Shown here in pieces: positions 46,742-58,589 of a stretch of DNA of 64,000 bases (positions within the stretch are counted from its first letter, which is position 1; the number at the start of each line of letters is the position of its first letter). The position numbers and the translations under genes are program-made. The stretch spans positions 3,367-67,366 of the forward strand of contig CAYZSU010000002.1 in the NCBI GenBank assembly GCA_964480565.1, written 5' to 3'. The notes under the pieces were generated by a model. That model searched no databases. It worked only from the letters and a program-made list of their open reading frames with translations, and was not told the DNA's origin. The stretch comes from an uncultured Myxococcales bacterium (GTDB lineage Bacteria; UBA10199; 2-02-FULL-44-16; JAAZCA01).

Positions 46742-47935
46742 TTATAAGCGCTCGCGCAAATAGGCCACTGCATTCATGAAGAACATATAGGCTTGATGTG
46801 GTGTTTGATATGGTGAAAAGTATTTATGCACATCGCCATCTTGAAAATATTTTGTACACATATAATAGTAATGATCGGATGTGGATAGTCGACGCGCTGA
46901 TTCCATTAAATCGGTACGTCCTTTTTCTTTAATTTCACGAAATACATCATAAAATGATTCAATGGCATTATGCTGTAAATCATTTTCCAACCATGCCGAT
47001 AAATCACGTTCTGTATCTGCCCATGATACTGGATAGGGATAAGATAGCACTTCAGGCGCATAATTAAGAATATCAATAGCATCCGAAGGCCAAGCAAATG
47101 ACATATGCGGGTATTTAAATACCTGTTTGGGTAAATCACGCATAAAATCAAAAATACCTGTTTCTGCCCATTGATGCTCACCAAAGGTTTCATAATCCAT
47201 AAATAAGTTAGCAAATAAATGTTTATCCCCATGCTCAACCAAACTTAATTTAGATAGCCATTGTGAAAATTTATCCGCAGTTAACGGAAATTCTGGCCAC
47301 GCACGATTTGAAAATCGAAATGCAATATCATCTGCTAAACTATAATATTTTAACATCAGCAGCATATGATGATTTTGTGCCATATACGCATATAATGGTG
47401 AACGCCAGCCTAAAATTTTCTCCACACCTTCTGCTAAAATGACTTTAAAATCAGCCTCTTCCCACACTAAATTTGAAATTGCATCCTGATAAATCAGCTC
47501 TGTATTTCGAAATACAACAGGATCATATCCGAATTCATCCTGCATCAATTGTTTGTGCATACGGACTTGTGTTAAAAATTCTTCTTGATCATAAAAAAAT
47601 GACAATGAATGATAATATGTTTCACCAATAAATTCCACACATCCTGTACGTGCCAATTCTTTGAAAGATTCTAGCACTTCTGGATAATATTTTCGAAATT
47701 GCTCAATCGCCACACCTGTCACTGAAAATGCGATTTTTACACGCCCTTCATAACGATCGATGAGCTCTTTTAATAATTTATTAGTAGGTAAATAGCACTT
47801 ATCACCAACTTTTCGAACCACAGAAGCATTTAGCTTCTCATCGAATAAATCTGTATCTCGTCCAATATCCAATACATTTAAATGTCTGACTCGATAGGGT
47901 TGGTGAACTTGAAAGTAAAAGACTATATGGAGCAT
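46742..47935 (-). CDS. Glycoside hydrolase family 57 protein
   Basis: N-terminal FQVHQPYR signature of GH57. Confidence 0.7.
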   Translation of the reverse strand: MLHIVFYFQVHQPYRVRHLNVLDIGRDTDLFDEKLNASVVRKVGDKCYLPTNKLLKELIDRYEGRVKIAFSVTGVAIEQFRKYYPEVLESFKELARTGCVEFIGETYYHSLSFFYDQEEFLTQVRMHKQLMQDEFGYDPVVFRNTELIYQDAISNLVWEEADFKVILAEGVEKILGWRSPLYAYMAQNHHMLLMLKYYSLADDIAFRFSNRAWPEFPLTADKFSQWLSKLSLVEHGDKHLFANLFMDYETFGEHQWAETGIFDFMRDLPKQVFKYPHMSFAWPSDAIDILNYAPEVLSYPYPVSWADTERDLSAWLENDLQHNAIESFYDVFREIKEKGRTDLMESARRLSTSDHYYYMCTKYFQDGDVHKYFSPYQTPHQAYMFFMNAVAYLRERL

Positions 47936-49233
47936 ATGGTTTCCTTGTATACATCAATGGCTTTCACTGCAGCATCATACCAACCAATGGACAATGCTTC
48001 TTGTTGACCTGCTAGTGCAACGCTTTCTCTTTGTTTTGGATTTTCTAAAAGTTCTAAAATAACATTAGTCATCCGATCAATATCCCAGAAATCGATTTTA
48101 TAGGCATTGTGAATCACTTCTGACACACCGGACTGTTTTGACACAACAGCCACAGCGCCATAGGCCATAGCCTCTAAAGGAACGATCCCAAAAGGCTCTG
48201 AAACAGATGGCATAATAAAAATATCCGTTCCTGATAAAATCTCTTCCACTTGATCCCGATTTAAAAACCCACTAAACAGAAATCGATCTTTCAATCGCTT
48301 TGATGCTGAATTGTGTACCATACGATTAAACATATCACCACTACCTGCCATGACAAAACGCACATTGGGATATTTATCAAGCACGCGTCTGGCAACTTCT
48401 AAGAAATAGTCCGGTCCTTTTTGAATGGTGACTCGACCTAAAAAGAGCACCATGAGATCTTTAAATACTTTTCGCCGTTTTTTTCGAAGCGGTGACATCG
48501 AATAGGCATTATATACCACACGCACTTTTTTAGGATGAACCACATATCGATCCATAATCATTCGTGATGTATATTGTGACACTGAAATCACACGATCCGC
48601 AGAGGTTAGGCCCGCATATTCAATTTTATGAATTCGATCATCCCCCTCGCCACCAGAGCGATCAAATTCTGTGGCATGAATATGGGAAATCAATGGGATT
48701 TCCAATAGATCCTTTAACGGAACTGCGGCCGGATATGTCAACCAATCATGTGTATGAATCAAATCATACCCCAACAAGTTGTGCGCATTTTTCAATACTC
48801 GCTCTGTAAAAAATCGTACCTGCTTAAAAATATCCTCTTCGCCATATATATGTTCACTTAAATCATCGACCGCTTCCACTTTCCAATTAATTCGTTTATT
48901 TAAAATGCGATCTACTTTTTTTCGAATTTGTTGGGCAGGCGTCACATATGAATCAGGATACTGTTTATAGCCTAAATTAATCATGCGTTCCTGAACATCT
49001 TCACTCCAATTTTCTTCACAAATAGATTCCATTCGCTTGTCCATCGCAACATATGGCAAGTTATCCACATCATCCGGTGTACGTAATTGAAAAATGACAT
49101 TTTTTTCCGTGGGCAGTAGCATATCCACTTCCACGCCCAACTCCAAAAGTGCTCGGATTAATCCATAACATGCCATCCCCAATCCACCGGAAATAAATGG
49201 CGGAAATTCCCATGTTAGTAGCAGTATTTTCAT
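47923..49233 (-). CDS. Glycosyltransferase family 4 (GT-B), alpha-glucan-synthase-like
   Basis: MKILLLTWEFPPFISGGLG N-terminus and a C-terminal E-x7-E-like GT4 region. Confidence 0.7.
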   Translation of the reverse strand: MKILLLTWEFPPFISGGLGMACYGLIRALLELGVEVDMLLPTEKNVIFQLRTPDDVDNLPYVAMDKRMESICEENWSEDVQERMINLGYKQYPDSYVTPAQQIRKKVDRILNKRINWKVEAVDDLSEHIYGEEDIFKQVRFFTERVLKNAHNLLGYDLIHTHDWLTYPAAVPLKDLLEIPLISHIHATEFDRSGGEGDDRIHKIEYAGLTSADRVISVSQYTSRMIMDRYVVHPKKVRVVYNAYSMSPLRKKRRKVFKDLMVLFLGRVTIQKGPDYFLEVARRVLDKYPNVRFVMAGSGDMFNRMVHNSASKRLKDRFLFSGFLNRDQVEEILSGTDIFIMPSVSEPFGIVPLEAMAYGAVAVVSKQSGVSEVIHNAYKIDFWDIDRMTNVILELLENPKQRESVALAGQQEALSIGWYDAAVKAIDVYKETICSI

Positions 49234-49246
49234 GAATTCCCCTTAC

Positions 49247-51253
49247 CTATACATCCAATAGTAGATGTTCAATTTCCAATAGTGCAAATACATTTCTCGC
49301 ATATGCGCTACAACCTTTAGGCATGTATGGATCAATGCCATCCCATAGTTCTGCAACACTTGCCATCTCACCCTTTAAAAACCCATCCCGAAATACCCAT
49401 ACATATTCAGATAGGCGACGAATAATCAATTCTCGTTCCATTGTATTGGATAGCGCTTTTAATGCGAGCTTTACAAAGGGCAACATTAAAAATGGCCATA
49501 CAGTTCCTTGATGACATGCCAAGTTGCGTTGCCGCTCTCCACCCACATAGCGTTGCTTAAATGACGCATGATTTGGTTCTAAACTGCGAAGGCCATATGG
49601 CGTTAATAATCGCTCTTCTGCCAATTGCCAAATACGCTGCAGTTGATCTTTTTCTAAAAAATCAAACGGCAATGATGCTGCAATCACTGCATTTGGCCGA
49701 ATATCCCAAATCACACCTGTATTATCTATTCGATCCGCTAAGTAGTCATCTCCCATAAATCGCTGTAAGGACTGACGAACTTGATCACGAAGTTTTACAA
49801 TATCATCATATGTGGCATGAAGTGCATTGGATTGAAAGTCGGATAGTGTTAATGCGTCCGCCATCTCAATAAATGCACATAATCCATTATACCACAATGC
49901 ATTCACTTCAACAGGCTTGCCGCTACGCGGTGTCACTGGTTTTCCATTAATATCTGCATCCATCCATGTTAAAGCAAGATCATTATTGCGAATGCAGAGC
50001 AATCCATCCTCATCACAGAAAAATGGCAATGTCGCATCCAAATAATAATGAAGTACAATATCAACCATTGTTTGAAATAAAGCGCTATTTTTCAATTCAA
50101 ACGCGTGACTATGAATCAAAAACCATAGAGAAGCATCAATACTATTATAATTCCGTACTAAATTCTCTGATGCCAATTCATGTGGAATCAAACCATTTTT
50201 CTGTAAAGCCGCATATTTCTTTAATATCTGATGTGCAACCACTTTACCATTGGACGTATATTTCAAGCCACTCATACAGGTCATTGTATTCCGACCACTA
50301 AATGAATACCATGGATATCCCTTGGCAATATCACTCTTATTTACAATAAAATCATTGGCTGCAACCTCAAGCAATTGATAATAATCGGTTCGCTTAAAGG
50401 GCTCATTGTGCATAGCATTATGCGTTTCCAAATACGCATGCGCAGATGTGTTCTCAGGATGATCTTCCGGAGCAATCAATGATTTATAATGATGCTGCGC
50501 TTTTGCCACTTCAACCGCACAGTCTGTGACAGATGTATCAGAAAATAGCATCCACCGACTGGTATGTGGCTCCAAATGAATCATAATACGTACCGGTGAA
50601 ATTAAATCTTCAACAGATTGATAGCCGCGAGCAGCCTCAGTTGGGTAATAGATGGATTCGTAAATAGCCTTATCTTCCCATAGCTGCCCATCTTCAATAT
50701 ATCCAAATGCATTTATTTGATTATCTTCACGGCTTATTTGAAATGAATTTTCCTGAGCCTCATACGACAACTGTGTCCGATGCCATGTACCAGATAAGTT
50801 AATATCATAATGATTGCGCAAACTAAACTTTGGCCGGACAACTAAATCAATCGCTTGATCGCCAAGATTATTATATTTAACAACCACCGCATTTTTTCCC
50901 GGCACCATAAACAATTCACGTGAAATCATTAGATCCGGCATTGGCGGTGTTGTTGAATACACGGTACACGGATAGGGTCGCAACCATGTTTTTAATATTT
51001 GTGCATAGCCATGTGGAAAAATACAATTTGCATAATGGTTGGAATCCAAATGAAAGTTACTTCCTTCCAACTCAACCAACTCTTCCATACAGGATAAAAT
51101 ATGATGTTTATTTTCACTGTCCGTCGCTGCAATCAATAAACCATTATACTTTCGTTTATTGAGCATATTCCCAAAGCCAAGCGCATACCCGCCAATACCA
51201 TTGGTCAGCAGCCATTCTCTATCAGAAATTTTCTGAAAAGAACCACTTTTCAT
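49247..51253 (-). CDS. Amylo-alpha-1,6-glucosidase / glycogen debranching enzyme (archaeal type). Start ATG at 51253; the alternative ATG at 51271 runs through the poly-C/G tract.
   Basis: GDE N-terminal block EWLLTNGIGGYALG...RKYNGLL. C-terminal (alpha/alpha)6 barrel blocks. Confidence 0.8.
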   Translation of the reverse strand: MKSGSFQKISDREWLLTNGIGGYALGFGNMLNKRKYNGLLIAATDSENKHHILSCMEELVELEGSNFHLDSNHYANCIFPHGYAQILKTWLRPYPCTVYSTTPPMPDLMISRELFMVPGKNAVVVKYNNLGDQAIDLVVRPKFSLRNHYDINLSGTWHRTQLSYEAQENSFQISREDNQINAFGYIEDGQLWEDKAIYESIYYPTEAARGYQSVEDLISPVRIMIHLEPHTSRWMLFSDTSVTDCAVEVAKAQHHYKSLIAPEDHPENTSAHAYLETHNAMHNEPFKRTDYYQLLEVAANDFIVNKSDIAKGYPWYSFSGRNTMTCMSGLKYTSNGKVVAHQILKKYAALQKNGLIPHELASENLVRNYNSIDASLWFLIHSHAFELKNSALFQTMVDIVLHYYLDATLPFFCDEDGLLCIRNNDLALTWMDADINGKPVTPRSGKPVEVNALWYNGLCAFIEMADALTLSDFQSNALHATYDDIVKLRDQVRQSLQRFMGDDYLADRIDNTGVIWDIRPNAVIAASLPFDFLEKDQLQRIWQLAEERLLTPYGLRSLEPNHASFKQRYVGGERQRNLACHQGTVWPFLMLPFVKLALKALSNTMERELIIRRLSEYVWVFRDGFLKGEMASVAELWDGIDPYMPKGCSAYARNVFALLEIEHLLLDV

Positions 51254-51491
51254 ATTCCCCCCCCCGTACACCTCTTCATATGCAAATCACATAATTGAAA
51301 TAAAATATCATTAGCTTTAATTTTTAATCGAGTAATTATGATACTTAATTTGGATATTAATATCAGTACTTGATCATGAAAACAATATAGAAACACACAC
51401 TTATAACTTTTTTTTCAATTGAGTCACTTTTGTTTTGCGTCATTGTTCAAGAACGTGTACAAGACTTTTAAATAATTCATGGAGGAGAAAT

Positions 51492-51873: not shown

Positions 51874-52350
51874 TTAACACCTAAGCAATGCTTGGGTGTT
51901 TTTTCGTTTACCCACAAAAAACTGTTTTAACAACTGACCACACTCTTTTGCCATTACACCACCTGTAATATCCACCTGATGATTGAGACGTTTATCCGTC
52001 AACACATTGTATAATGACTCAACAGCACCTGCTTTTGGATCATAACAACCAAATACAATACGAGATATACGTGATTGATAAATAGCACCCGCACACATTA
52101 CGCACGGTTCACATGTCACAATCAATTCAACACCATCCAGTCGCCATGACTTTATTTTTTTTGAAACATCGCTGATTAAAAGTATCTCCGCATGCCCTAT
52201 TGGATTTTGATCACATTCACGACGATTATGTGCACGTGCAATAATTTGATTGTCTTTCACCGCAATGGCCCCAATGGGCACTTCATCCATTGCCATTGCT
52301 TTTTTGGCTTCATCAATGGCTTGCTTCATTAAAGCTTGACTAGCTATCAT
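51874..52350 (-). CDS. tadA: tRNA-specific adenosine deaminase
   Basis: Zinc-binding HAEILLI and CEPCVMCAGAI motifs. Confidence 0.85.
   Translation of the reverse strand: MIASQALMKQAIDEAKKAMAMDEVPIGAIAVKDNQIIARAHNRRECDQNPIGHAEILLISDVSKKIKSWRLDGVELIVTCEPCVMCAGAIYQSRISRIVFGCYDPKAGAVESLYNVLTDKRLNHQVDITGGVMAKECGQLLKQFFVGKRKNTQALLRC
51877..51905 (+). terminator. Rho-independent terminator of the histone-like gene, overlapping the last codons of convergent tadA
   Basis: ACACCTAAGCA-atg-CTTGGGTGT followed by TTTTTT. Confidence 0.6.
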
Positions 52351-52422: not shown

Positions 52423-53394
52423 ATGCTACTACAATATATTCCTTTAAAAAATTTGAATGTTGCTGATGACAGCTACCGAATTACCTTTGCACCTGAATTG
52501 GATAACTTAAAACGTTCTATCAAGTCCGTAGGCGTTATTCAACCAATCAATATCAGGCACACAGCTGAAGGTACATTCCAAATCGTCACTGGGTATAAAC
52601 GCGTGCTTGTCATGCAAGAGATTGAACGTCAATCAGTACCAGCGCTCATTCACGAACCTGGAGATTTATCGCCCACACAAGCATTTTTGTGGAACCTTCA
52701 TGACAATGCAATCACACGCTCATTAAATCTAGTTGAAAAAAGCATTGCACTCAATAAGCTTCAGCAATTTTATTCCATTGCTGAAGATGATTTGGCCAAA
52801 CAATTCTTACCATTGCTTGGCATTGAGCCAAGCTATAAAATTTTACATCAGTTATGCGCGCTAGATCAACTTATTGAGCCACTCAAAACTCATATTGTTG
52901 AATCACAAATGGCATTATCATCTGCAGCTCGTATTGCTGACTTCTCACCAACGACGCAACAAGCACTATTAGCAGTGCTCTTACATATTAGACCCTCTAC
53001 AAGCAAGCTAAATGAATTACTATCCTTACTCCGTGAAATTTCAGCTCGCGATGGAATTACAGTGGAAGACATTTTAAGTCGTTATAAATTACTACAAGTA
53101 GTGGCCAATCCAGAGGCCACATCTGGTGAAAAAGTGGGCGCGCTCAGACAAGCATTGCGCGGCATTCGACTTCCACAACTCACACAACGCCAAAAGGAAT
53201 TGGCCAATCTCATACAAAATCTAGAATTACCTGATTCCGCAAAAGTAGTGGCAGACCCATACTTTGAAAACAATAATATGAAATTGGAATATCGATTTTC
53301 CAATCCAAAGGAATTGGATAGTTTAGTTAAAAAGATTCAAGATGCATTTTCAAAGCAAAAATGGCAGCAAATATTTGAATGGTATCGCAATTAA
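52423..53394 (+). CDS. ParB/Srx-fold (ParB-like) DNA-binding protein; no ParA partner in the window
   Basis: ParB N-domain pattern IPLKNL...YRIT...SIKSVGVIQPINIR...FQIVTGYKRVLVMQEI, followed by an HTH-like region. The arginine patch is GYKRV rather than GERRxRA. Confidence 0.5.
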   Translation: MLLQYIPLKNLNVADDSYRITFAPELDNLKRSIKSVGVIQPINIRHTAEGTFQIVTGYKRVLVMQEIERQSVPALIHEPGDLSPTQAFLWNLHDNAITRSLNLVEKSIALNKLQQFYSIAEDDLAKQFLPLLGIEPSYKILHQLCALDQLIEPLKTHIVESQMALSSAARIADFSPTTQQALLAVLLHIRPSTSKLNELLSLLREISARDGITVEDILSRYKLLQVVANPEATSGEKVGALRQALRGIRLPQLTQRQKELANLIQNLELPDSAKVVADPYFENNNMKLEYRFSNPKELDSLVKKIQDAFSKQKWQQIFEWYRN

Positions 53395-53507
53395 TAATAA
53401 GTTCAATAAAGTATTATTCTAACTGATACAATACTCAATTGAATTTATTCCCAACTCAGCAGATGGGTCATTTTTTAGCCCCCATAATGCGTCAGGGGAT
53501 AACAAGT

Positions 53508-54686
53508 ATGCATTCCCAAACCTCATCATTTTCTGTACAACCCTTAAAAACGCGACACCGTAAAAAGAAAACACTATTTCCTTTTTTACCAGAGCAAGTT
53601 TGGGTGGATCGAAATATAGTATCACATCCACAAACCATCCGTATTCTCAATCAATTACAAGATGCAGAAATAGACATCGTTGATAATATTCGTTCATTAA
53701 AAACACCCGCAAGCCTCAATATAGCCAAAAAACAACTTGTTCTCACTGAACACAAAGGGCATGCCTTTAAAGAATGCCAGGGTATCACTCCCAACCACCT
53801 GTGCTGTAATTACCGCACATTGGACTTAGTATCTGGCTGTCCCATGGATTGCAGTTATTGCATTTTGCAATCCTATCTAGCAAACAACCCCATCACCACT
53901 GTATATGTGAATTTGGAACAAATTCTCGACCAAGTGGCAAGCTTTCTAAAGTCAAACAAGGGTACCCATTTTCGTATTGGCACAGGTGAATTAGGAGATA
54001 GCCTCGCATTAGATCCAATCATCGATTATGCGAGTATTTTAATTCCCTTTTTTGCACAGCAAGACAATGCTGTATTAGAATTAAAGACAAAAACAAATTT
54101 TGTCGATCATATCCTAAAATTACGCCATCGCAATCGAACCATTATTGCATGGTCGATAAATACACCTGATTATATTCAAACAGAAGAAAGTCATACTGCC
54201 AGCTTAGAAAAACGGATTGAAGCGGCACAAAAAGTCATTCAAGCAGGATATCGTGTGGCATTTCACTTTGACCCCATTTTTATACTTAAGGACATTGATA
54301 CTGAGATGGCGGCATATCAAGATGTCATTGCCACTATATTCGAGCATATTGATCCACAGTATATTGCCTGGATCAGCTTAGGGCTACTTCGCTATCCAAA
54401 AAATTTACCTCAAATCGCAGAAAAACGATTTCCAAATACCCGTATTTATACGGGCGAACTCGTACCATCGGATTCAAAAGTCAGGTATTTGCGATTTATT
54501 CGTGAACACGCATATAAATTACTTTGGAATACCTTTCAAAAATATATTACCACCAACAAACTATACCTTTGCATGGAAACTCACACAGTTTGGCAAAAAG
54601 TAGATACATCCATTAACAGCAATGAATGCATTGATAAACGACTGTGCACACAGGAAAATGTTTTGTTTGATTTTAAAAATTTTTAG
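53508..54686 (+). CDS. Spore-photoproduct-lyase-family radical SAM protein (SplB-like)
   Basis: CxxxCxxC cluster VSGCPMDCSYCILQSY. Blocks YVNLEQILDQ and KRIEAAQKVIQAGYRVAFHFDPIF align closely with Bacillus SplB. The alternative start at 53439 is less likely. Confidence 0.65.
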   Translation: MHSQTSSFSVQPLKTRHRKKKTLFPFLPEQVWVDRNIVSHPQTIRILNQLQDAEIDIVDNIRSLKTPASLNIAKKQLVLTEHKGHAFKECQGITPNHLCCNYRTLDLVSGCPMDCSYCILQSYLANNPITTVYVNLEQILDQVASFLKSNKGTHFRIGTGELGDSLALDPIIDYASILIPFFAQQDNAVLELKTKTNFVDHILKLRHRNRTIIAWSINTPDYIQTEESHTASLEKRIEAAQKVIQAGYRVAFHFDPIFILKDIDTEMAAYQDVIATIFEHIDPQYIAWISLGLLRYPKNLPQIAEKRFPNTRIYTGELVPSDSKVRYLRFIREHAYKLLWNTFQKYITTNKLYLCMETHTVWQKVDTSINSNECIDKRLCTQENVLFDFKNF

Positions 54687-57716: not shown

Positions 57717-58589
57717 TTAAGCTGATCTCATTTTATTTTGAATTTCAATCATTTCATGAGTAAGCACTCTATTATTGCGTTTAGATGCACCCTTTCGCAC
57801 AATTTCAGCTCTAGCCACAATTTGTTGCTTAATCATCGCGTGGTAGGATATATTGCATTTACTATCCAATAGTATTTTCTGAAGGGCATTAATTCGATAT
57901 CGATCCAATTTACTTTGTTTGGATAATTGATCTGCATGACCGCCGTACTTAATAATCAATGCATCTGGCATGGTTAAAATAGGATACCGAAGTGCCGCTC
58001 GCAACCACAACTCATAGTCTTCACAGGCTAAAAATGTATTATCAAAACCACCCAATTCACAAAAGGTTGATCGTGTCATCATTACTGCAGAGGGTGATAC
58101 AATACACAATGGCACACATTTTAAAAATATCCAGCCTGATTGTTTCACATGTTTTTTCTTGGCATTAACACGTTTATTATTTCGAATCCAAATTTCTTCA
58201 GTTTGGCATATACAGGCGCGCGAATAATCCGCCATATACTGTACTTGTTTTTCCAACTTTTCAGACAACCATTCATCATCCGAGTCTAAAAATGCAATTA
58301 AATCGCCAGATGATTTTTCAACACCCACGTTCCGTGCATTTGCCACACCTTGATTCTGTATATAAAAATATGAAATGCGCGAATCGAGCAATGAATGAAC
58401 ATATGTATCAGTATGATCATCACTACCATCATCAATGACAATTAACTCAAAATTACTGTAAGTTTGATTTAGAACAGACTCAATTGCACGGGGAAGTGCT
58501 GTTATACGATTATATGTAGGAATAATAATGCTAATTAAGGGAACAGAGGGCATATCAAAAAGGCGGGGGTTCATGCATGCTTGGATCAT
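57717..58589 (-). CDS. Glycosyltransferase family 2. Start uncertain; ATGs at 58553 or 58574 would avoid the overlap with dnaB.
   Basis: LISIIIPTYNR ... IVIDDGSDD ... DSDDEW (DxD region). Confidence 0.7.
   Translation of the reverse strand: MIQACMNPRLFDMPSVPLISIIIPTYNRITALPRAIESVLNQTYSNFELIVIDDGSDDHTDTYVHSLLDSRISYFYIQNQGVANARNVGVEKSSGDLIAFLDSDDEWLSEKLEKQVQYMADYSRACICQTEEIWIRNNKRVNAKKKHVKQSGWIFLKCVPLCIVSPSAVMMTRSTFCELGGFDNTFLACEDYELWLRAALRYPILTMPDALIIKYGGHADQLSKQSKLDRYRINALQKILLDSKCNISYHAMIKQQIVARAEIVRKGASKRNNRVLTHEMIEIQNKMRSA

What the first reader, a model, noticed from the sequence alone, without database searches (positions are those of the whole stretch)
52423..54686. ParB-like protein paired with a genuine SplB-type radical SAM enzyme
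The radical SAM protein aligns block-for-block with Bacillus spore photoproduct lyase (CxxxCxxC, YVNLEQILDQ, KRIEAAQKVIQAGY). This enzyme repairs the 5-thyminyl-5,6-dihydrothymine lesion typical of dehydrated/A-form spore DNA.

In place of the small SplA regulator, the upstream gene encodes a 323-aa ParB/Srx-fold protein with a degenerate arginine patch (GYKRV) and no ParA.

The pair is separated by 113 bp with no terminator. It may form a DNA-damage recognition and repair module, with the ParB-like protein acting as a DNA clamp or targeting factor.

The presence of SplB in an organism with outer-membrane proteins is itself unusual.
Basis: partly seen in the sequence, partly recalled or inferred. 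Interest (0 to 1): 0.65.

Follow-up and report, generated by a model that had tools for sequence, protein, structure and literature searches.

The report
Orphan ParB partnered with SPL-like enzyme
A ParB-type DNA-binding protein and a radical SAM enzyme built like spore photoproduct lyase form a conserved, undescribed gene pair in many uncultivated Gram-negative bacteria; the enzyme is not a true spore photoproduct lyase, and the pair's function, probably on DNA, is unknown.

Summary
The pairing is far beyond chance. In 15 of 16 evaluable genome loci the SPL-like gene follows the ParB-like gene. In 50 of 60 informative metagenome loci the partner precedes the SPL-like gene, and one locus (L007) has the two genes divergently oriented.

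The enzyme has the SPL fold (TM 0.84 to 4FHC) and belongs to Pfam SPL. It is not an SplB orthologue:
- It scores 152 bits against the 400-bit TIGR04070 cutoff and is about 25% identical to Bacillus SplB.
- Glu replaces the Cys140 H-donor, Ile replaces Tyr98, and thymine-binding Arg193 and Glu268 are lost.
- It carries four extra invariant cysteines.

The partner is an orphan ParB: a nucleotide-binding domain, a ParB-type DNA-binding domain, and an unannotated C-terminal domain. That C-terminal domain defines a family of about 2,100 clusters and sometimes occurs alone beside the enzyme. No ParA is present.

Outside this lineage a GT2 glycosyltransferase is a third conserved member. Its orthologue lies 3 kb downstream in the window.

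SPL-like genes in Gram-negative bacteria are not unusual. The function is untested. My best guess is a ParB-targeted radical enzyme acting on DNA.

The parts
52423..53394 (+). Orphan ParB-like protein, 323 aa. It has a ParB/Srx nucleotide-binding domain, a ParB-type helical DNA-binding domain and a family-specific C-terminal domain.
52432..52671 (+). ParB_N nucleotide-binding domain (residues 4-83). Box I Arg19. Box II G57-Y-K-R60 at 52591-52602. Box III D94-N95 lies just downstream of this range.
   Evidence: Alignments to Noc and ParB chains. G57, R60, H93 and N95 are invariant in the lineage. G57 and R60 are at least 90% conserved in 107 distant representatives, consensus GFRR. TGYKRV translated directly.
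52867..53391 (+). C-terminal domain (residues 149-323). It has no Pfam family and is the part that always accompanies the SPL-like enzyme.
   Evidence: No Pfam hit. A profile search found 2,098 representative clusters at E<=1e-3, mostly 315-335 aa with this domain at the C-terminus. Stand-alone versions of about 175 aa lie directly upstream of the SPL-like gene in L071, L076, L091 and L099. No structural match beyond weak helical hits.
53396..53449 (+). Imperfect 20-nt inverted repeat in the spacer. It forms a stable RNA hairpin without a U-tract. Role unknown.
   Evidence: Arms are 85% complementary. Folding energy -14 kcal/mol, z -5.0 against shuffles. The sequence is not conserved in relatives.
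53463..54686 (+). SPL-fold radical SAM enzyme. It is 407 aa from ATG 53463, or 392 aa from ATG 53508. Homology starts near residue 26 of the shorter form.
   Evidence: Pfam SPL, E 2.2e-37. TIGR04070 151.9 bits against a 400-bit cutoff. PDB best hit is SPL, E 1e-23. AF2 pLDDT 88; Foldseek to 4FHC E 1e-24, TM 0.84, next fold E 1e-5.
53838..53861 (+). Radical SAM cluster motif C111-PMD-C115-SY-C118 (numbering from M at 53508).
   Evidence: Translation. All three Cys are present in 86/86 clade members.
53775..53807 (+). Three extra invariant cysteines: C90 (at the position of Geobacillus SPL Ser76, the Clostridium-type H-donor position) and C99-C100, in an insertion absent from SPL.
   Evidence: Translation FKECQGITPNHLCCNY. 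Conserved in 85-86 of 86. Alignment to 4rh0, the S76C mutant. Role of Ser76/Cys77 from PMC3467042.
54570..54572 (+). Fourth extra invariant cysteine, C355, in 'YLCME'. It lies two residues after the Tyr that aligns with SPL Tyr339.
   Evidence: Translation. Conserved in 84/86. Alignment.
57717..58589 (-). GT2 glycosyltransferase, a candidate third component. It is detached by 3 kb in this window.
   Evidence: Pfam Glycos_transf_2, E 1.4e-35. It is 42-53% identical to the GT2 gene directly upstream of the partner gene in 27 of 30 loci outside this lineage that have room upstream, plus 4 partial cases. No GT2 hit was found elsewhere in any locus.
51874..52350 (-). tadA-type deaminase, divergently transcribed. 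It is a conserved neighbour only within this lineage and is probably not part of the module.
   Evidence: Pfam. Present upstream in nearly all window-lineage loci. Absent next to the pair in L007 and L009 and not recovered among recurrent neighbours outside this lineage.

Best explanation
This is a conserved chromosomal module, two genes here and three genes with a GT2 in most other lineages. An orphan ParB-type protein works together with an SPL-fold radical SAM enzyme on DNA.

Proposed mechanism.
1. The ParB-like protein binds a nucleotide triphosphate in its ParB/Srx pocket and binds DNA through its ParB-type helical domain.
2. Its family-specific C-terminal domain docks the enzyme and brings it to DNA.
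3. The enzyme reductively cleaves SAM and the 5'-deoxyadenosyl radical abstracts a hydrogen from a flipped-out base or base pair.
4. A cysteine in the pocket (C90, the Clostridium-type donor position) returns a hydrogen.
5. The substrate is probably not the classical spore photoproduct. A related methylene-bridged or other radical-type base lesion, or a base to be modified, is more likely.

Shown: gene linkage, folds, motif conservation and the clade-specific residue pattern.

Inferred: NTP binding, DNA binding, physical contact between the two proteins, DNA as the substrate, and the chemistry.
For: Linkage.
- In 15 of 17 genome loci the SPL-like gene lies directly downstream. One of the two exceptions is cut by the contig end.
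- In 50 of 60 informative metagenome loci the partner lies directly upstream on the same strand.
- The pairing is also seen in a Syntrophaceae MAG with different flanking genes (L009).
- It is seen in divergent orientation with a shortened 275-aa partner (L007).
- There is no terminator between the two genes.

The C-terminal domain is the constant element.
- Partners of about 175 aa consisting of the C-terminal domain alone occur next to the enzyme.
- The domain defines about 2,100 representative clusters, nearly all with the ParB_N plus C-terminal domain architecture.

The partner is ParB-like in structure.
- Its N-terminal and DNA-binding domains match ParB/Noc/KorB/PadC.
- Box I Arg, Box II GxxR and Box III D/E-N are kept.

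The enzyme.
- It has the full SPL fold.
- The cluster Cys and the SAM-binding Lys174, Ser195 and Tyr96 equivalents are conserved.
- So are the equivalents of phosphate-binding Arg273 and Lys309, and a Tyr aligned to Tyr339.

Family context. COG1533 splB-like genes are LexA-regulated in several phyla (PMC4951493, PMC8565304).
Against: No experiment exists for any member.

- Thymine-recognition residues Arg193 and Glu268 are lost, Tyr98 is lost, and the beta-hairpin is about 7 residues shorter.
- The clade is much less basic than true SPL, median pI 7.15 against 9.26.
- The GT2 linkage fits a glycan or small-molecule pathway at least as well as DNA repair.
- In three loci of this lineage the radical SAM motif is destroyed (L014, L019, L028). 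In one locus the enzyme gene is absent (L025).
- In all four the ParB-like gene stays intact, so the ParB-like protein must also have a role that does not need the enzyme's catalysis.
- 10 of 60 SPL-like loci have no partner within 5 kb.
- The habitats of related MAGs, such as groundwater and digesters, make UV lesions an unlikely selective agent.
Confidence: 0.4

Rival explanations
1. The ParB-like protein is mainly an operon-specific transcriptional regulator, like KorB (an NTP-gated repressor) or SbnI (a ParB/Srx-fold regulator inside a biosynthetic operon). It controls the enzyme gene and perhaps tadA or GT2. The two proteins do not cooperate physically on a substrate.
For: - The protein sits first in the operon, next to a divergent promoter region in this lineage.
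- It is retained and highly conserved where the enzyme is dead or lost. That suggests a DNA-binding role of its own.
Against: - Partners made of the C-terminal domain alone lack the ParB_N domain and most of the DNA-binding domain, yet keep the linkage.
- No conserved palindrome or operator-like repeat was found in the promoter or spacer regions.
- 55-77% identity over a fixed 323 aa is unusually strong conservation for a local regulator.
Confidence: 0.2
2. The module is a small-molecule or glycan pathway, not a DNA system. The GT2 transfers a sugar. The ParB/Srx-fold protein acts as an ATP-dependent kinase or nucleotidyl-transferase, like SerK, SbnI or sulfiredoxin. The SPL-fold radical SAM enzyme rearranges or cleaves the product.
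For: - GT2 lies directly upstream of the partner in 27 of 30 loci outside this lineage, across several SPL-like clades and GC contents from 0.35 to 0.69.
- The GT2 resembles polysaccharide-type GT2 enzymes such as TuaG, EpsD and WcaA.
- Alpha-glucan genes lie nearby here and in L009.
- The enzyme clade has a near-neutral pI.
Against: - The equivalents of the SPL phosphodiester-binding Arg273 and Lys309 are conserved.
- The partner has a full ParB-type DNA-binding domain.
- The only characterised member of the fold family acts on DNA.
- The GT2 is not adjacent in the 19 window-lineage loci with room upstream.
Confidence: 0.15
3. The module is a DNA hypermodification system for anoxic life. The radical SAM enzyme functionalises a base, for example at the thymine C5-methyl group, which is SPL-type chemistry. 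The GT2 then glycosylates the product, and the ParB-like protein targets or spreads the activity along DNA. This would be an oxygen-independent counterpart of TET/JBP plus glycosyltransferase systems.
For: - The three genes GT2, ParB-like and SPL-like are linked.
- The base-recognition residues are altered and four new invariant Cys sit in the pocket region.
Against: - There is no PADLOC match.
- No copies were found on phages, plasmids or viral contigs.
- The GT2 looks like an ordinary polysaccharide GT2.
- No restriction or effector partner is seen.
- The GT2 is detached in this lineage.
Confidence: 0.12
4. One reading: the enzyme is a true spore photoproduct lyase repairing 5-thyminyl-5,6-dihydrothymine formed in desiccated or A-form DNA of a non-spore-former. 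The ParB-like protein acts as a damage-targeting clamp.
For: - SPL is the closest solved structure by far.
- A Cys occupies the Clostridium-type H-donor position (PMC3467042).
- Tyr96, Lys174, Ser195, Arg273 and Lys309 are kept.
- A UV-C-induced SPL-family gene has been reported in non-sporulating Curtobacterium (PMC12029717).
Against: - The enzyme scores 151.9 bits against the 400-bit TIGR04070 cutoff and is about 25% identical to SplB.
- Arg193 and Glu268, which bind the dihydrothymine, are Ser/Ala and Gly.
- Glu replaces Cys140 in 119 of 120 sequences.
- Four extra invariant Cys are present.
- An SspA probe finds no SASP-like gene in the window or the loci.
- Relatives come from dark, anoxic habitats.
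Confidence: 0.1

Closest known systems
Spore photoproduct lyase SplB (Bacillus subtilis, Geobacillus thermodenitrificans 4FHC/4FHD; the Clostridium variant with Cys77)
   Same: - Same overall fold over about 347 aligned positions (TM 0.84).
- Same CxxxCxxC motif and the same SAM-binding Lys174, Ser195 and Tyr96.
- Arg273 and Lys309 equivalents are kept.
- A Cys sits at the Ser76/Cys77 position, as in Clostridium SPL.
   Different: - About 25% identity, and 152 bits against the 400-bit equivalog cutoff.
- Cys140 is Glu, Tyr98 is Ile/Val/Phe, Arg193 is Ser/Ala, and Glu268 is Gly.
- The hairpin is shorter.
- Three further invariant Cys are present (the CC insertion and C355), plus a C-terminal extension of about 35 aa.
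- There is no SplA gene and no sporulation context.
- The partner gene is a ParB-like protein.
ParB/Noc/KorB CTP-dependent DNA clamps, and PadC
   Same: - ParB_N fold with Box I Arg, Box II GxxR and Box III acidic-Asn.
- A ParB-type helical DNA-binding domain.
   Different: - No ParA and no parAB operon.
- Below the TIGR00180 and Noc cutoffs.
- The Box II Glu is Tyr or Phe.
- The C-terminal domain is unrelated to the ParB dimerisation domain and has no Pfam family.
- It is encoded with a radical SAM enzyme.
Orphan ParB-CTPase-fold proteins surveyed in bioRxiv 10.1101/2025.10.10.680097
   Same: It is encoded outside parAB, has a divergent nucleotide-binding motif and is fused to a lineage-specific domain. 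This is the general class that paper describes.
   Different: That paper's text contains no mention of radical SAM or photoproduct lyase partners. This particular family and its linkage are not described there.
COG1533 'SplB' radical SAM genes of the SOS regulon (Verrucomicrobia, Bacteroidetes, Actinobacteria, Proteobacteria; PMC4951493, PMC8565304)
   Same: These are SPL-like radical SAM proteins in non-spore-forming, mostly Gram-negative bacteria, presumed to act in DNA repair and biochemically uncharacterised.
   Different: Those genes are reported as single LexA-regulated genes. No ParB-like or GT2 partner is reported. I could not test whether they belong to the same clade, or whether a LexA box is present here.
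SbnI of Staphylococcus (ParB/Srx-fold serine kinase and regulator within the staphyloferrin B operon)
   Different: The structural match covers only part of the protein. The operon content is different, and the C-terminal domain is not shared.
Radical SAM plus uracil-DNA-glycosylase two-gene pair (COG1573-COG4277), a predicted DNA repair system
   Same: It is a conserved pairing of a radical SAM enzyme with a DNA-directed partner, inferred from gene linkage and SOS regulation (PMC4951493).
   Different: Both components belong to different protein families.

Membership tests
Spore photoproduct lyase (SplB, TIGR04070 equivalog) | Scores above the curated equivalog cutoff (400 bits) | tested here: not met
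   151.9 bits. tblastn identity to annotated Bacillus splB is 24-27%.
Spore photoproduct lyase (SplB, TIGR04070 equivalog) | Radical SAM CxxxCxxC motif and SAM-binding residues (Tyr96, Lys174, Ser195) | tested here: met
   CPMDCSYC. The Tyr96, Lys174 and Ser195 equivalents are conserved in at least 117 of 120 sequences.
Spore photoproduct lyase (SplB, TIGR04070 equivalog) | Fourth conserved Cys as H-atom donor (Cys140 in Bacillus type, or Cys77 position in Clostridium type) | tested here: inconclusive
   The Cys140 position is Glu in 119 of 120. The Ser76/Cys77 position is Cys in 118 of 120. This Cys is one of four extra invariant Cys, so it may have another role.
Spore photoproduct lyase (SplB, TIGR04070 equivalog) | [quoted passage not shown] | tested here: not met
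   Ile in 97 and Val in 18 of 120. Phe or Tyr in a few clades. The conservation statement is from PMC3467042.
Spore photoproduct lyase (SplB, TIGR04070 equivalog) | Dihydrothymine-binding residues Arg193, Glu268 and Tyr339 | tested here: not met
   Arg193 is Ser/Ala and Glu268 is Gly. A Tyr aligns with Tyr339 in one alignment but not in another. Residue roles are from PMC3467042.
Spore photoproduct lyase (SplB, TIGR04070 equivalog) | Phosphate-binding Arg273 and Lys309, and a beta-hairpin with Arg304/Tyr305 at its tip | tested here: inconclusive
   Arg273 (119/120) and Lys309 (113/120) equivalents are kept. A hairpin is predicted but is about 7 residues shorter, and the tip residues align with gaps.
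Spore photoproduct lyase (SplB, TIGR04070 equivalog) | Cleaves 5-thyminyl-5,6-dihydrothymine in DNA | not testable with these tools
   This needs reconstituted enzyme and an SP substrate.
Pfam SPL family PF20903 (fold-level family) | Scores above the Pfam gathering threshold and shares the SPL fold | tested here: met
   129.2 bits against a cutoff of 27. Foldseek to 4FHC E 1e-24, TM 0.84.
Canonical ParB / Noc (ParABS partition or nucleoid occlusion) | Scores above the TIGR00180 (58.45) or Noc TIGR04285 (315) cutoffs | tested here: not met
   46.7 and 48.8 bits.
Canonical ParB / Noc (ParABS partition or nucleoid occlusion) | ParA partner encoded alongside | tested here: not met
   No Soj-like hit in the window or within +-5-8 kb in 28 loci. 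No deviant Walker A in the window.
Canonical ParB / Noc (ParABS partition or nucleoid occlusion) | ParB_N fold with Box I, II and III nucleotide-binding motifs | tested here: inconclusive
   ParB_N E 4.7e-12. Arg19, G57-x-x-R60 and D94-N95 are kept, but GERR is GYKR here and GFRR in the wider family. Nucleotide binding itself is untested.
Canonical ParB / Noc (ParABS partition or nucleoid occlusion) | Central helix-turn-helix DNA-binding domain | tested here: met
Canonical ParB / Noc (ParABS partition or nucleoid occlusion) | C-terminal ParB dimerisation domain | tested here: not met
   No Pfam family on residues 149-323. No structural match to ParB C-terminal domains.
Known anti-phage defence or mobile-element systems | Matches a PADLOC model, or is carried on phages or plasmids | tested here: not met
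   PADLOC gave only one weak MTase hit for the ParB-like protein and none for the enzyme. Plasmid and phage hits are true SplB-like at about 25% identity. No relative in viral contigs. The window is chromosomal, with a dcw cluster and dnaB.

The most novel reading that the evidence does not exclude
The ParB-like protein is an NTP-gated DNA clamp that carries an SPL-fold radical SAM enzyme along the chromosome. The enzyme has an auxiliary metal or Fe-S site built from the four extra invariant Cys.

Together with the linked GT2, the module would do one of two things:
- repair radical-type methylene-bridged base cross-links without light or oxygen, or
- install an oxygen-independent glycosylated base modification.

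Either would be a new class of DNA transaction enzyme system, widespread in anoxic bacteria.
Probability: 0.2. Interest if true: 0.9.

Novelty: new variant of a known kind. Interest (0 to 1): 0.66.

Why it matters
SPL is the only biochemically characterised enzyme of its fold and the textbook example of radical-based DNA repair. This work defines a large, distinct clade of that fold with a different active-site signature.

That clade is tied to an orphan ParB family of about 2,100 clusters whose role is unknown. If the two proteins cooperate on DNA, two things would follow:
- The ParB nucleotide-switch paradigm would extend from segregation and repression to delivery of a repair or modification enzyme.
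- A concrete function could be tested for the long-unexplained 'SplB-like' radical SAM genes of non-spore-formers.

If instead the module is metabolic, it would show the SPL fold recruited away from DNA. Either result is directly testable with recombinant proteins.

Tried and rejected
- **Canonical ParB/Noc paralogue with ParA:** rejected.
- **Known defence system:** no PADLOC match.
- **Mobile element:** no close copies on plasmids, phages or viral contigs. A viral scan with the ParB alignment could not be run because no stretch was conserved enough.
- **Operator or parS-like site:** no inverted repeat in the promoter region. The spacer hairpins are not conserved in sequence.
- **SASP or sporulation context:** an SspA probe (sequence recalled from memory) was negative in the window and in all loci. 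The rest of the genome is not available.
- **Fusion of the C-terminal domain to the enzyme (Rosetta-stone evidence):** none among the 150 best representatives, longest 380 aa. The N-terminal extension of the 466-aa SPL-like protein in L010 has no ParB-like or Pfam match.
- **Third homology search with a profile of distant partners:** it returned essentially the same close family.
- **tadA as a functional partner:** rejected. The linkage is confined to this lineage.
- **The AFDB fold library was unavailable**.
- **Cys-Cys distances in the model could not be measured.** Coordinates are not exposed, so the auxiliary-cluster idea rests on sequence position only.
- **Overall charge as a DNA-binding indicator:** it gave no support. 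The clade's median pI is 7.15.
- **Literature searches** for ParB with SPL or radical SAM found nothing relevant.
Full report
**What is in the window**

Two same-strand ORFs lie at 52423-53394 (323 aa) and 53463/53508-54686 (407 or 392 aa).
- The first carries a ParB_N domain (Pfam E 4.7e-12).
- The second matches Pfam SPL (E 2.2e-37) and Radical_SAM.
- No terminator-like site separates the genes.
- The spacer is 113 bp from ATG 53508, or 68 bp from ATG 53463. It contains a stable AT-rich hairpin (-14 kcal/mol, z -5.0) without a U-tract.

The surroundings are chromosomal and Gram-negative.
- A dcw cluster (mur genes, ftsA, ftsZ) lies at about 9-26 kb, and dnaB at 58.5-60 kb.
- There is a weak outer-membrane beta-barrel hit, and relatives have BamA/TamB next door.
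- A Soj probe (sequence recalled from memory) and a Walker A pattern search find no ParA/MinD-type ATPase anywhere in the 64 kb.

**Is the pairing more than chance?**

Yes. A genome scan with the ParB-like alignment returned 17 MAG loci labelled Deltaproteobacteria, Myxococcales or Pseudomonadota.
- In 15 of them an SPL-like gene lies directly downstream.
- One locus ends at the contig edge.
- One (L025) has unrelated genes instead.

A metagenome scan with the SPL-like alignment returned 80 loci. I searched them with an HMM of the partner. Of 60 loci with enough upstream sequence to judge:
- 38 have a full-length partner directly upstream on the same strand;
- 8 have a partner cut by the contig end;
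- 4 have a partner made only of the C-terminal half;
- 10 have none within 5 kb.

The pair also occurs in other settings.
- A Syntrophaceae MAG has it with different flanking genes (L009).
- L007 has it in divergent orientation. Its 275-aa neighbour is homologous to the window protein over its whole length (BLASTP E 5e-13).

The GC content of the loci runs from 0.35 to 0.73, so the association is not confined to one lineage.

**The enzyme**

SPL is by far its closest solved relative.
- By sequence: E 1e-23.
- By predicted structure: pLDDT 88, Foldseek E 1e-24, TM 0.84 over about 347 columns. The next fold scores E 1e-5.

It is not an SplB orthologue.
- It scores 151.9 bits on TIGR04070 against a cutoff of 400, and 57 bits on the TIGR03886 SPL-family model against 437.
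- It is 24-27% identical to annotated Bacillus splB genes.

I took the residue roles from the Geobacillus SPL structure paper (PMC3467042). I recovered the wild-type chain from the PDB search. That search used a B. subtilis SplB query recalled from memory, which the strong match (572 bits) supports. I then scored the key positions in 120 and in about 90 clade members.

Kept:
- the three cluster Cys;
- Tyr96, Lys174 and Ser195 (SAM binding);
- Arg273 and Lys309 (phosphate of the lesion);
- probably a Tyr at the Tyr339 position.

Changed throughout the clade:
- Cys140 (H-donor) is Glu in 119 of 120;
- Tyr98 is Ile, Val or Phe;
- Arg193 is Ser or Ala;
- Glu268 is Gly;
- the beta-hairpin is about 7 residues shorter.

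New features:
- A Cys at the Ser76 position, where Clostridium SPL keeps its donor Cys.
- Three further invariant Cys: a 'CC' pair in an insertion in the loop that holds the 3'-thymine in SPL, and C355, two residues after the Tyr339 equivalent.
- Invariant His253, Asp255, Trp215, Trp288 and Glu357.

Four extra invariant Cys around the substrate pocket suggest an auxiliary metal or Fe-S site, or a multi-Cys relay. I could not measure distances, so this is an inference from sequence position only. The clade is also much less basic than SPL (median pI 7.15 against 9.26).

**The partner**

The AF2 model (pLDDT 84) matches ParB, Noc and KorB over about 220 columns (Foldseek E 1e-9).
- It also gives sulfiredoxin, SbnI and serine kinase for the N-domain.

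Box I Arg19, Box II G57-Y-K-R60 and Box III D94-N95 align with the CTP-binding motifs of Noc and ParB. In 107 distant representatives (median 26% identity) the Box II consensus is GFRR, with Gly and the last Arg at least 90% conserved. The 'degenerate' K is therefore a local substitution.

Residues 149-323 have no Pfam family and no structural match.
- A profile of this C-terminal domain finds 2,098 representative clusters at E<=1e-3 and 457 at E<=1e-10 among 1.84 billion.
- They are mostly 315-335 aa with the domain at the C-terminus.
- All eight full-length (314-380 aa) representatives sampled carry ParB_N, six of them above the Pfam gathering cutoff.
- In a high-GC clade the partner is a stand-alone C-terminal domain of about 175 aa.

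The C-terminal domain is thus the constant companion of the enzyme. This is the main reason to think it contacts the enzyme.

**Complications**

*Uncoupled conservation.* Within the window's lineage the ParB-like protein is better conserved than the enzyme: 55-77% identity and a fixed 323 aa, against a best of 62% for the enzyme.
- Three loci have an enzyme whose cluster Cys are destroyed. The motif positions read S..C..D in L014, N..L..C in L019 and A..C..S in L028.
- Those enzymes have also diverged faster, yet sit next to an intact partner.
- L025 has lost the enzyme gene altogether.
- The ParB-like protein must therefore also do something that does not require catalysis by the enzyme.

*A third gene.* A GT2 glycosyltransferase is conserved in most other lineages.
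- It lies directly upstream of the partner in 27 of 30 loci with room, plus 4 partial cases.
- This holds across several SPL-like clades, including the clade whose partner is the C-terminal domain alone, and once in divergent orientation.
- Other neighbours (Rho_N protein, GH57, SDR) are confined to one clade.
- In the window's lineage the GT2 is not adjacent (0 of 19). In the window itself the orthologue (42-53% identity) lies 3 kb downstream on the other strand, at 57717-58589.
- The GT2 resembles ordinary polysaccharide GT2 enzymes and meets no equivalog cutoff.

**What is known**

- No paper in the library pairs ParB with SPL or radical SAM.
- The 2025 survey of ParB-CTPase-fold proteins describes orphan ParBs with lineage-specific fusions but does not mention radical SAM.
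- COG1533 'splB' genes are reported as LexA-regulated in Verrucomicrobia, Bacteroidetes, Actinobacteria and Proteobacteria.
- A UV-C-induced SPL-family gene was noted in Curtobacterium.
- SPL-like genes in non-spore-formers are therefore known, though uncharacterised.
- The module is not in PADLOC and was not found on plasmids, phages or viral contigs.

**Verdict**

The enzyme, however, is a distinct SPL-fold clade rather than a genuine SP lyase, and its presence in a Gram-negative organism is not remarkable.

My best explanation (confidence 0.4) is that the ParB-type protein binds NTP and DNA and docks the enzyme on DNA through its C-terminal domain. The enzyme would then carry out radical chemistry on a lesion or base other than the classical spore photoproduct.

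The rivals are:
- a KorB- or SbnI-like local regulator (0.2);
- a GT2-linked small-molecule or glycan pathway (0.15);
- oxygen-independent DNA hypermodification (0.12);
- true SP repair (0.1).

All of these can be tested with recombinant proteins.

Noticed in passing
window 57717-58589 (-); L009 3010-3843; L033-L104: A GT2 glycosyltransferase orthologue (42-53% identity) sits immediately upstream of the partner gene in 27 of 30 loci outside the window's lineage, once in divergent orientation. In the window it lies 3 kb away on the other strand. It may be a third component of the module.
   Followed up: partly
L014 9001-10179, L019 7054-8241, L028 3878-4930, L025 8978-11449: In three close relatives the SPL-like gene has lost two of its three radical SAM cluster cysteines. 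In one relative the gene is replaced by unrelated genes. The adjacent ParB-like gene stays intact (56-71% identical to the window's).
   Followed up: partly
window 53775-53807 and 54570-54572: Four cysteines beyond the radical SAM motif (C90, C99, C100, C355) are invariant in 84-86 of 86 clade members and absent from Geobacillus SPL. They may form an auxiliary metal or Fe-S site. Distances in the model could not be measured.
   Followed up: partly
window 53396-53449: A 20-nt imperfect inverted repeat lies in the spacer between the two genes. As RNA it folds at -14 kcal/mol (z -5.0 against shuffles) and has no U-tract. L004 has two GC-rich hairpins at the same place, but the sequences are not conserved.
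   Followed up: partly
window 51435/51492-51845 (+): A small Lys/Thr/Ala-rich basic protein (117-136 aa) with a weak DUF2934 C-terminus lies next to tadA. It was not found in related loci. The L009-type loci carry a different small basic protein with a Rho_N domain upstream of the GT2.
   Followed up: partly
window 47923-51271 (-); L009 291-2426: Alpha-glucan metabolism genes lie close to the pair. In the window these are a starch-synthase-like GT and a glycogen debranching enzyme. In the distant L009-type loci it is a GH57 enzyme. This may be old synteny or a functional hint.
   Followed up: no
L071 174-704, L076 2000-2566, L091 1636-2172, L099 1314-2141: In a high-GC clade the partner of the SPL-like gene is a protein of about 175 aa that corresponds only to residues 150-320 of the ParB-like protein. 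It has no ParB_N domain.
   Followed up: partly
window 51874-52350 (-): A tadA-type deaminase is divergently transcribed from the ParB-like gene in nearly all loci of this lineage, but not in distant loci that carry the pair.
   Followed up: yes
L010 5001-6401 (P0094, 466 aa): An SPL-like protein without a ParB-like neighbour carries an N-terminal extension of about 107 aa. The extension has no Pfam or partner-profile match.
   Followed up: partly
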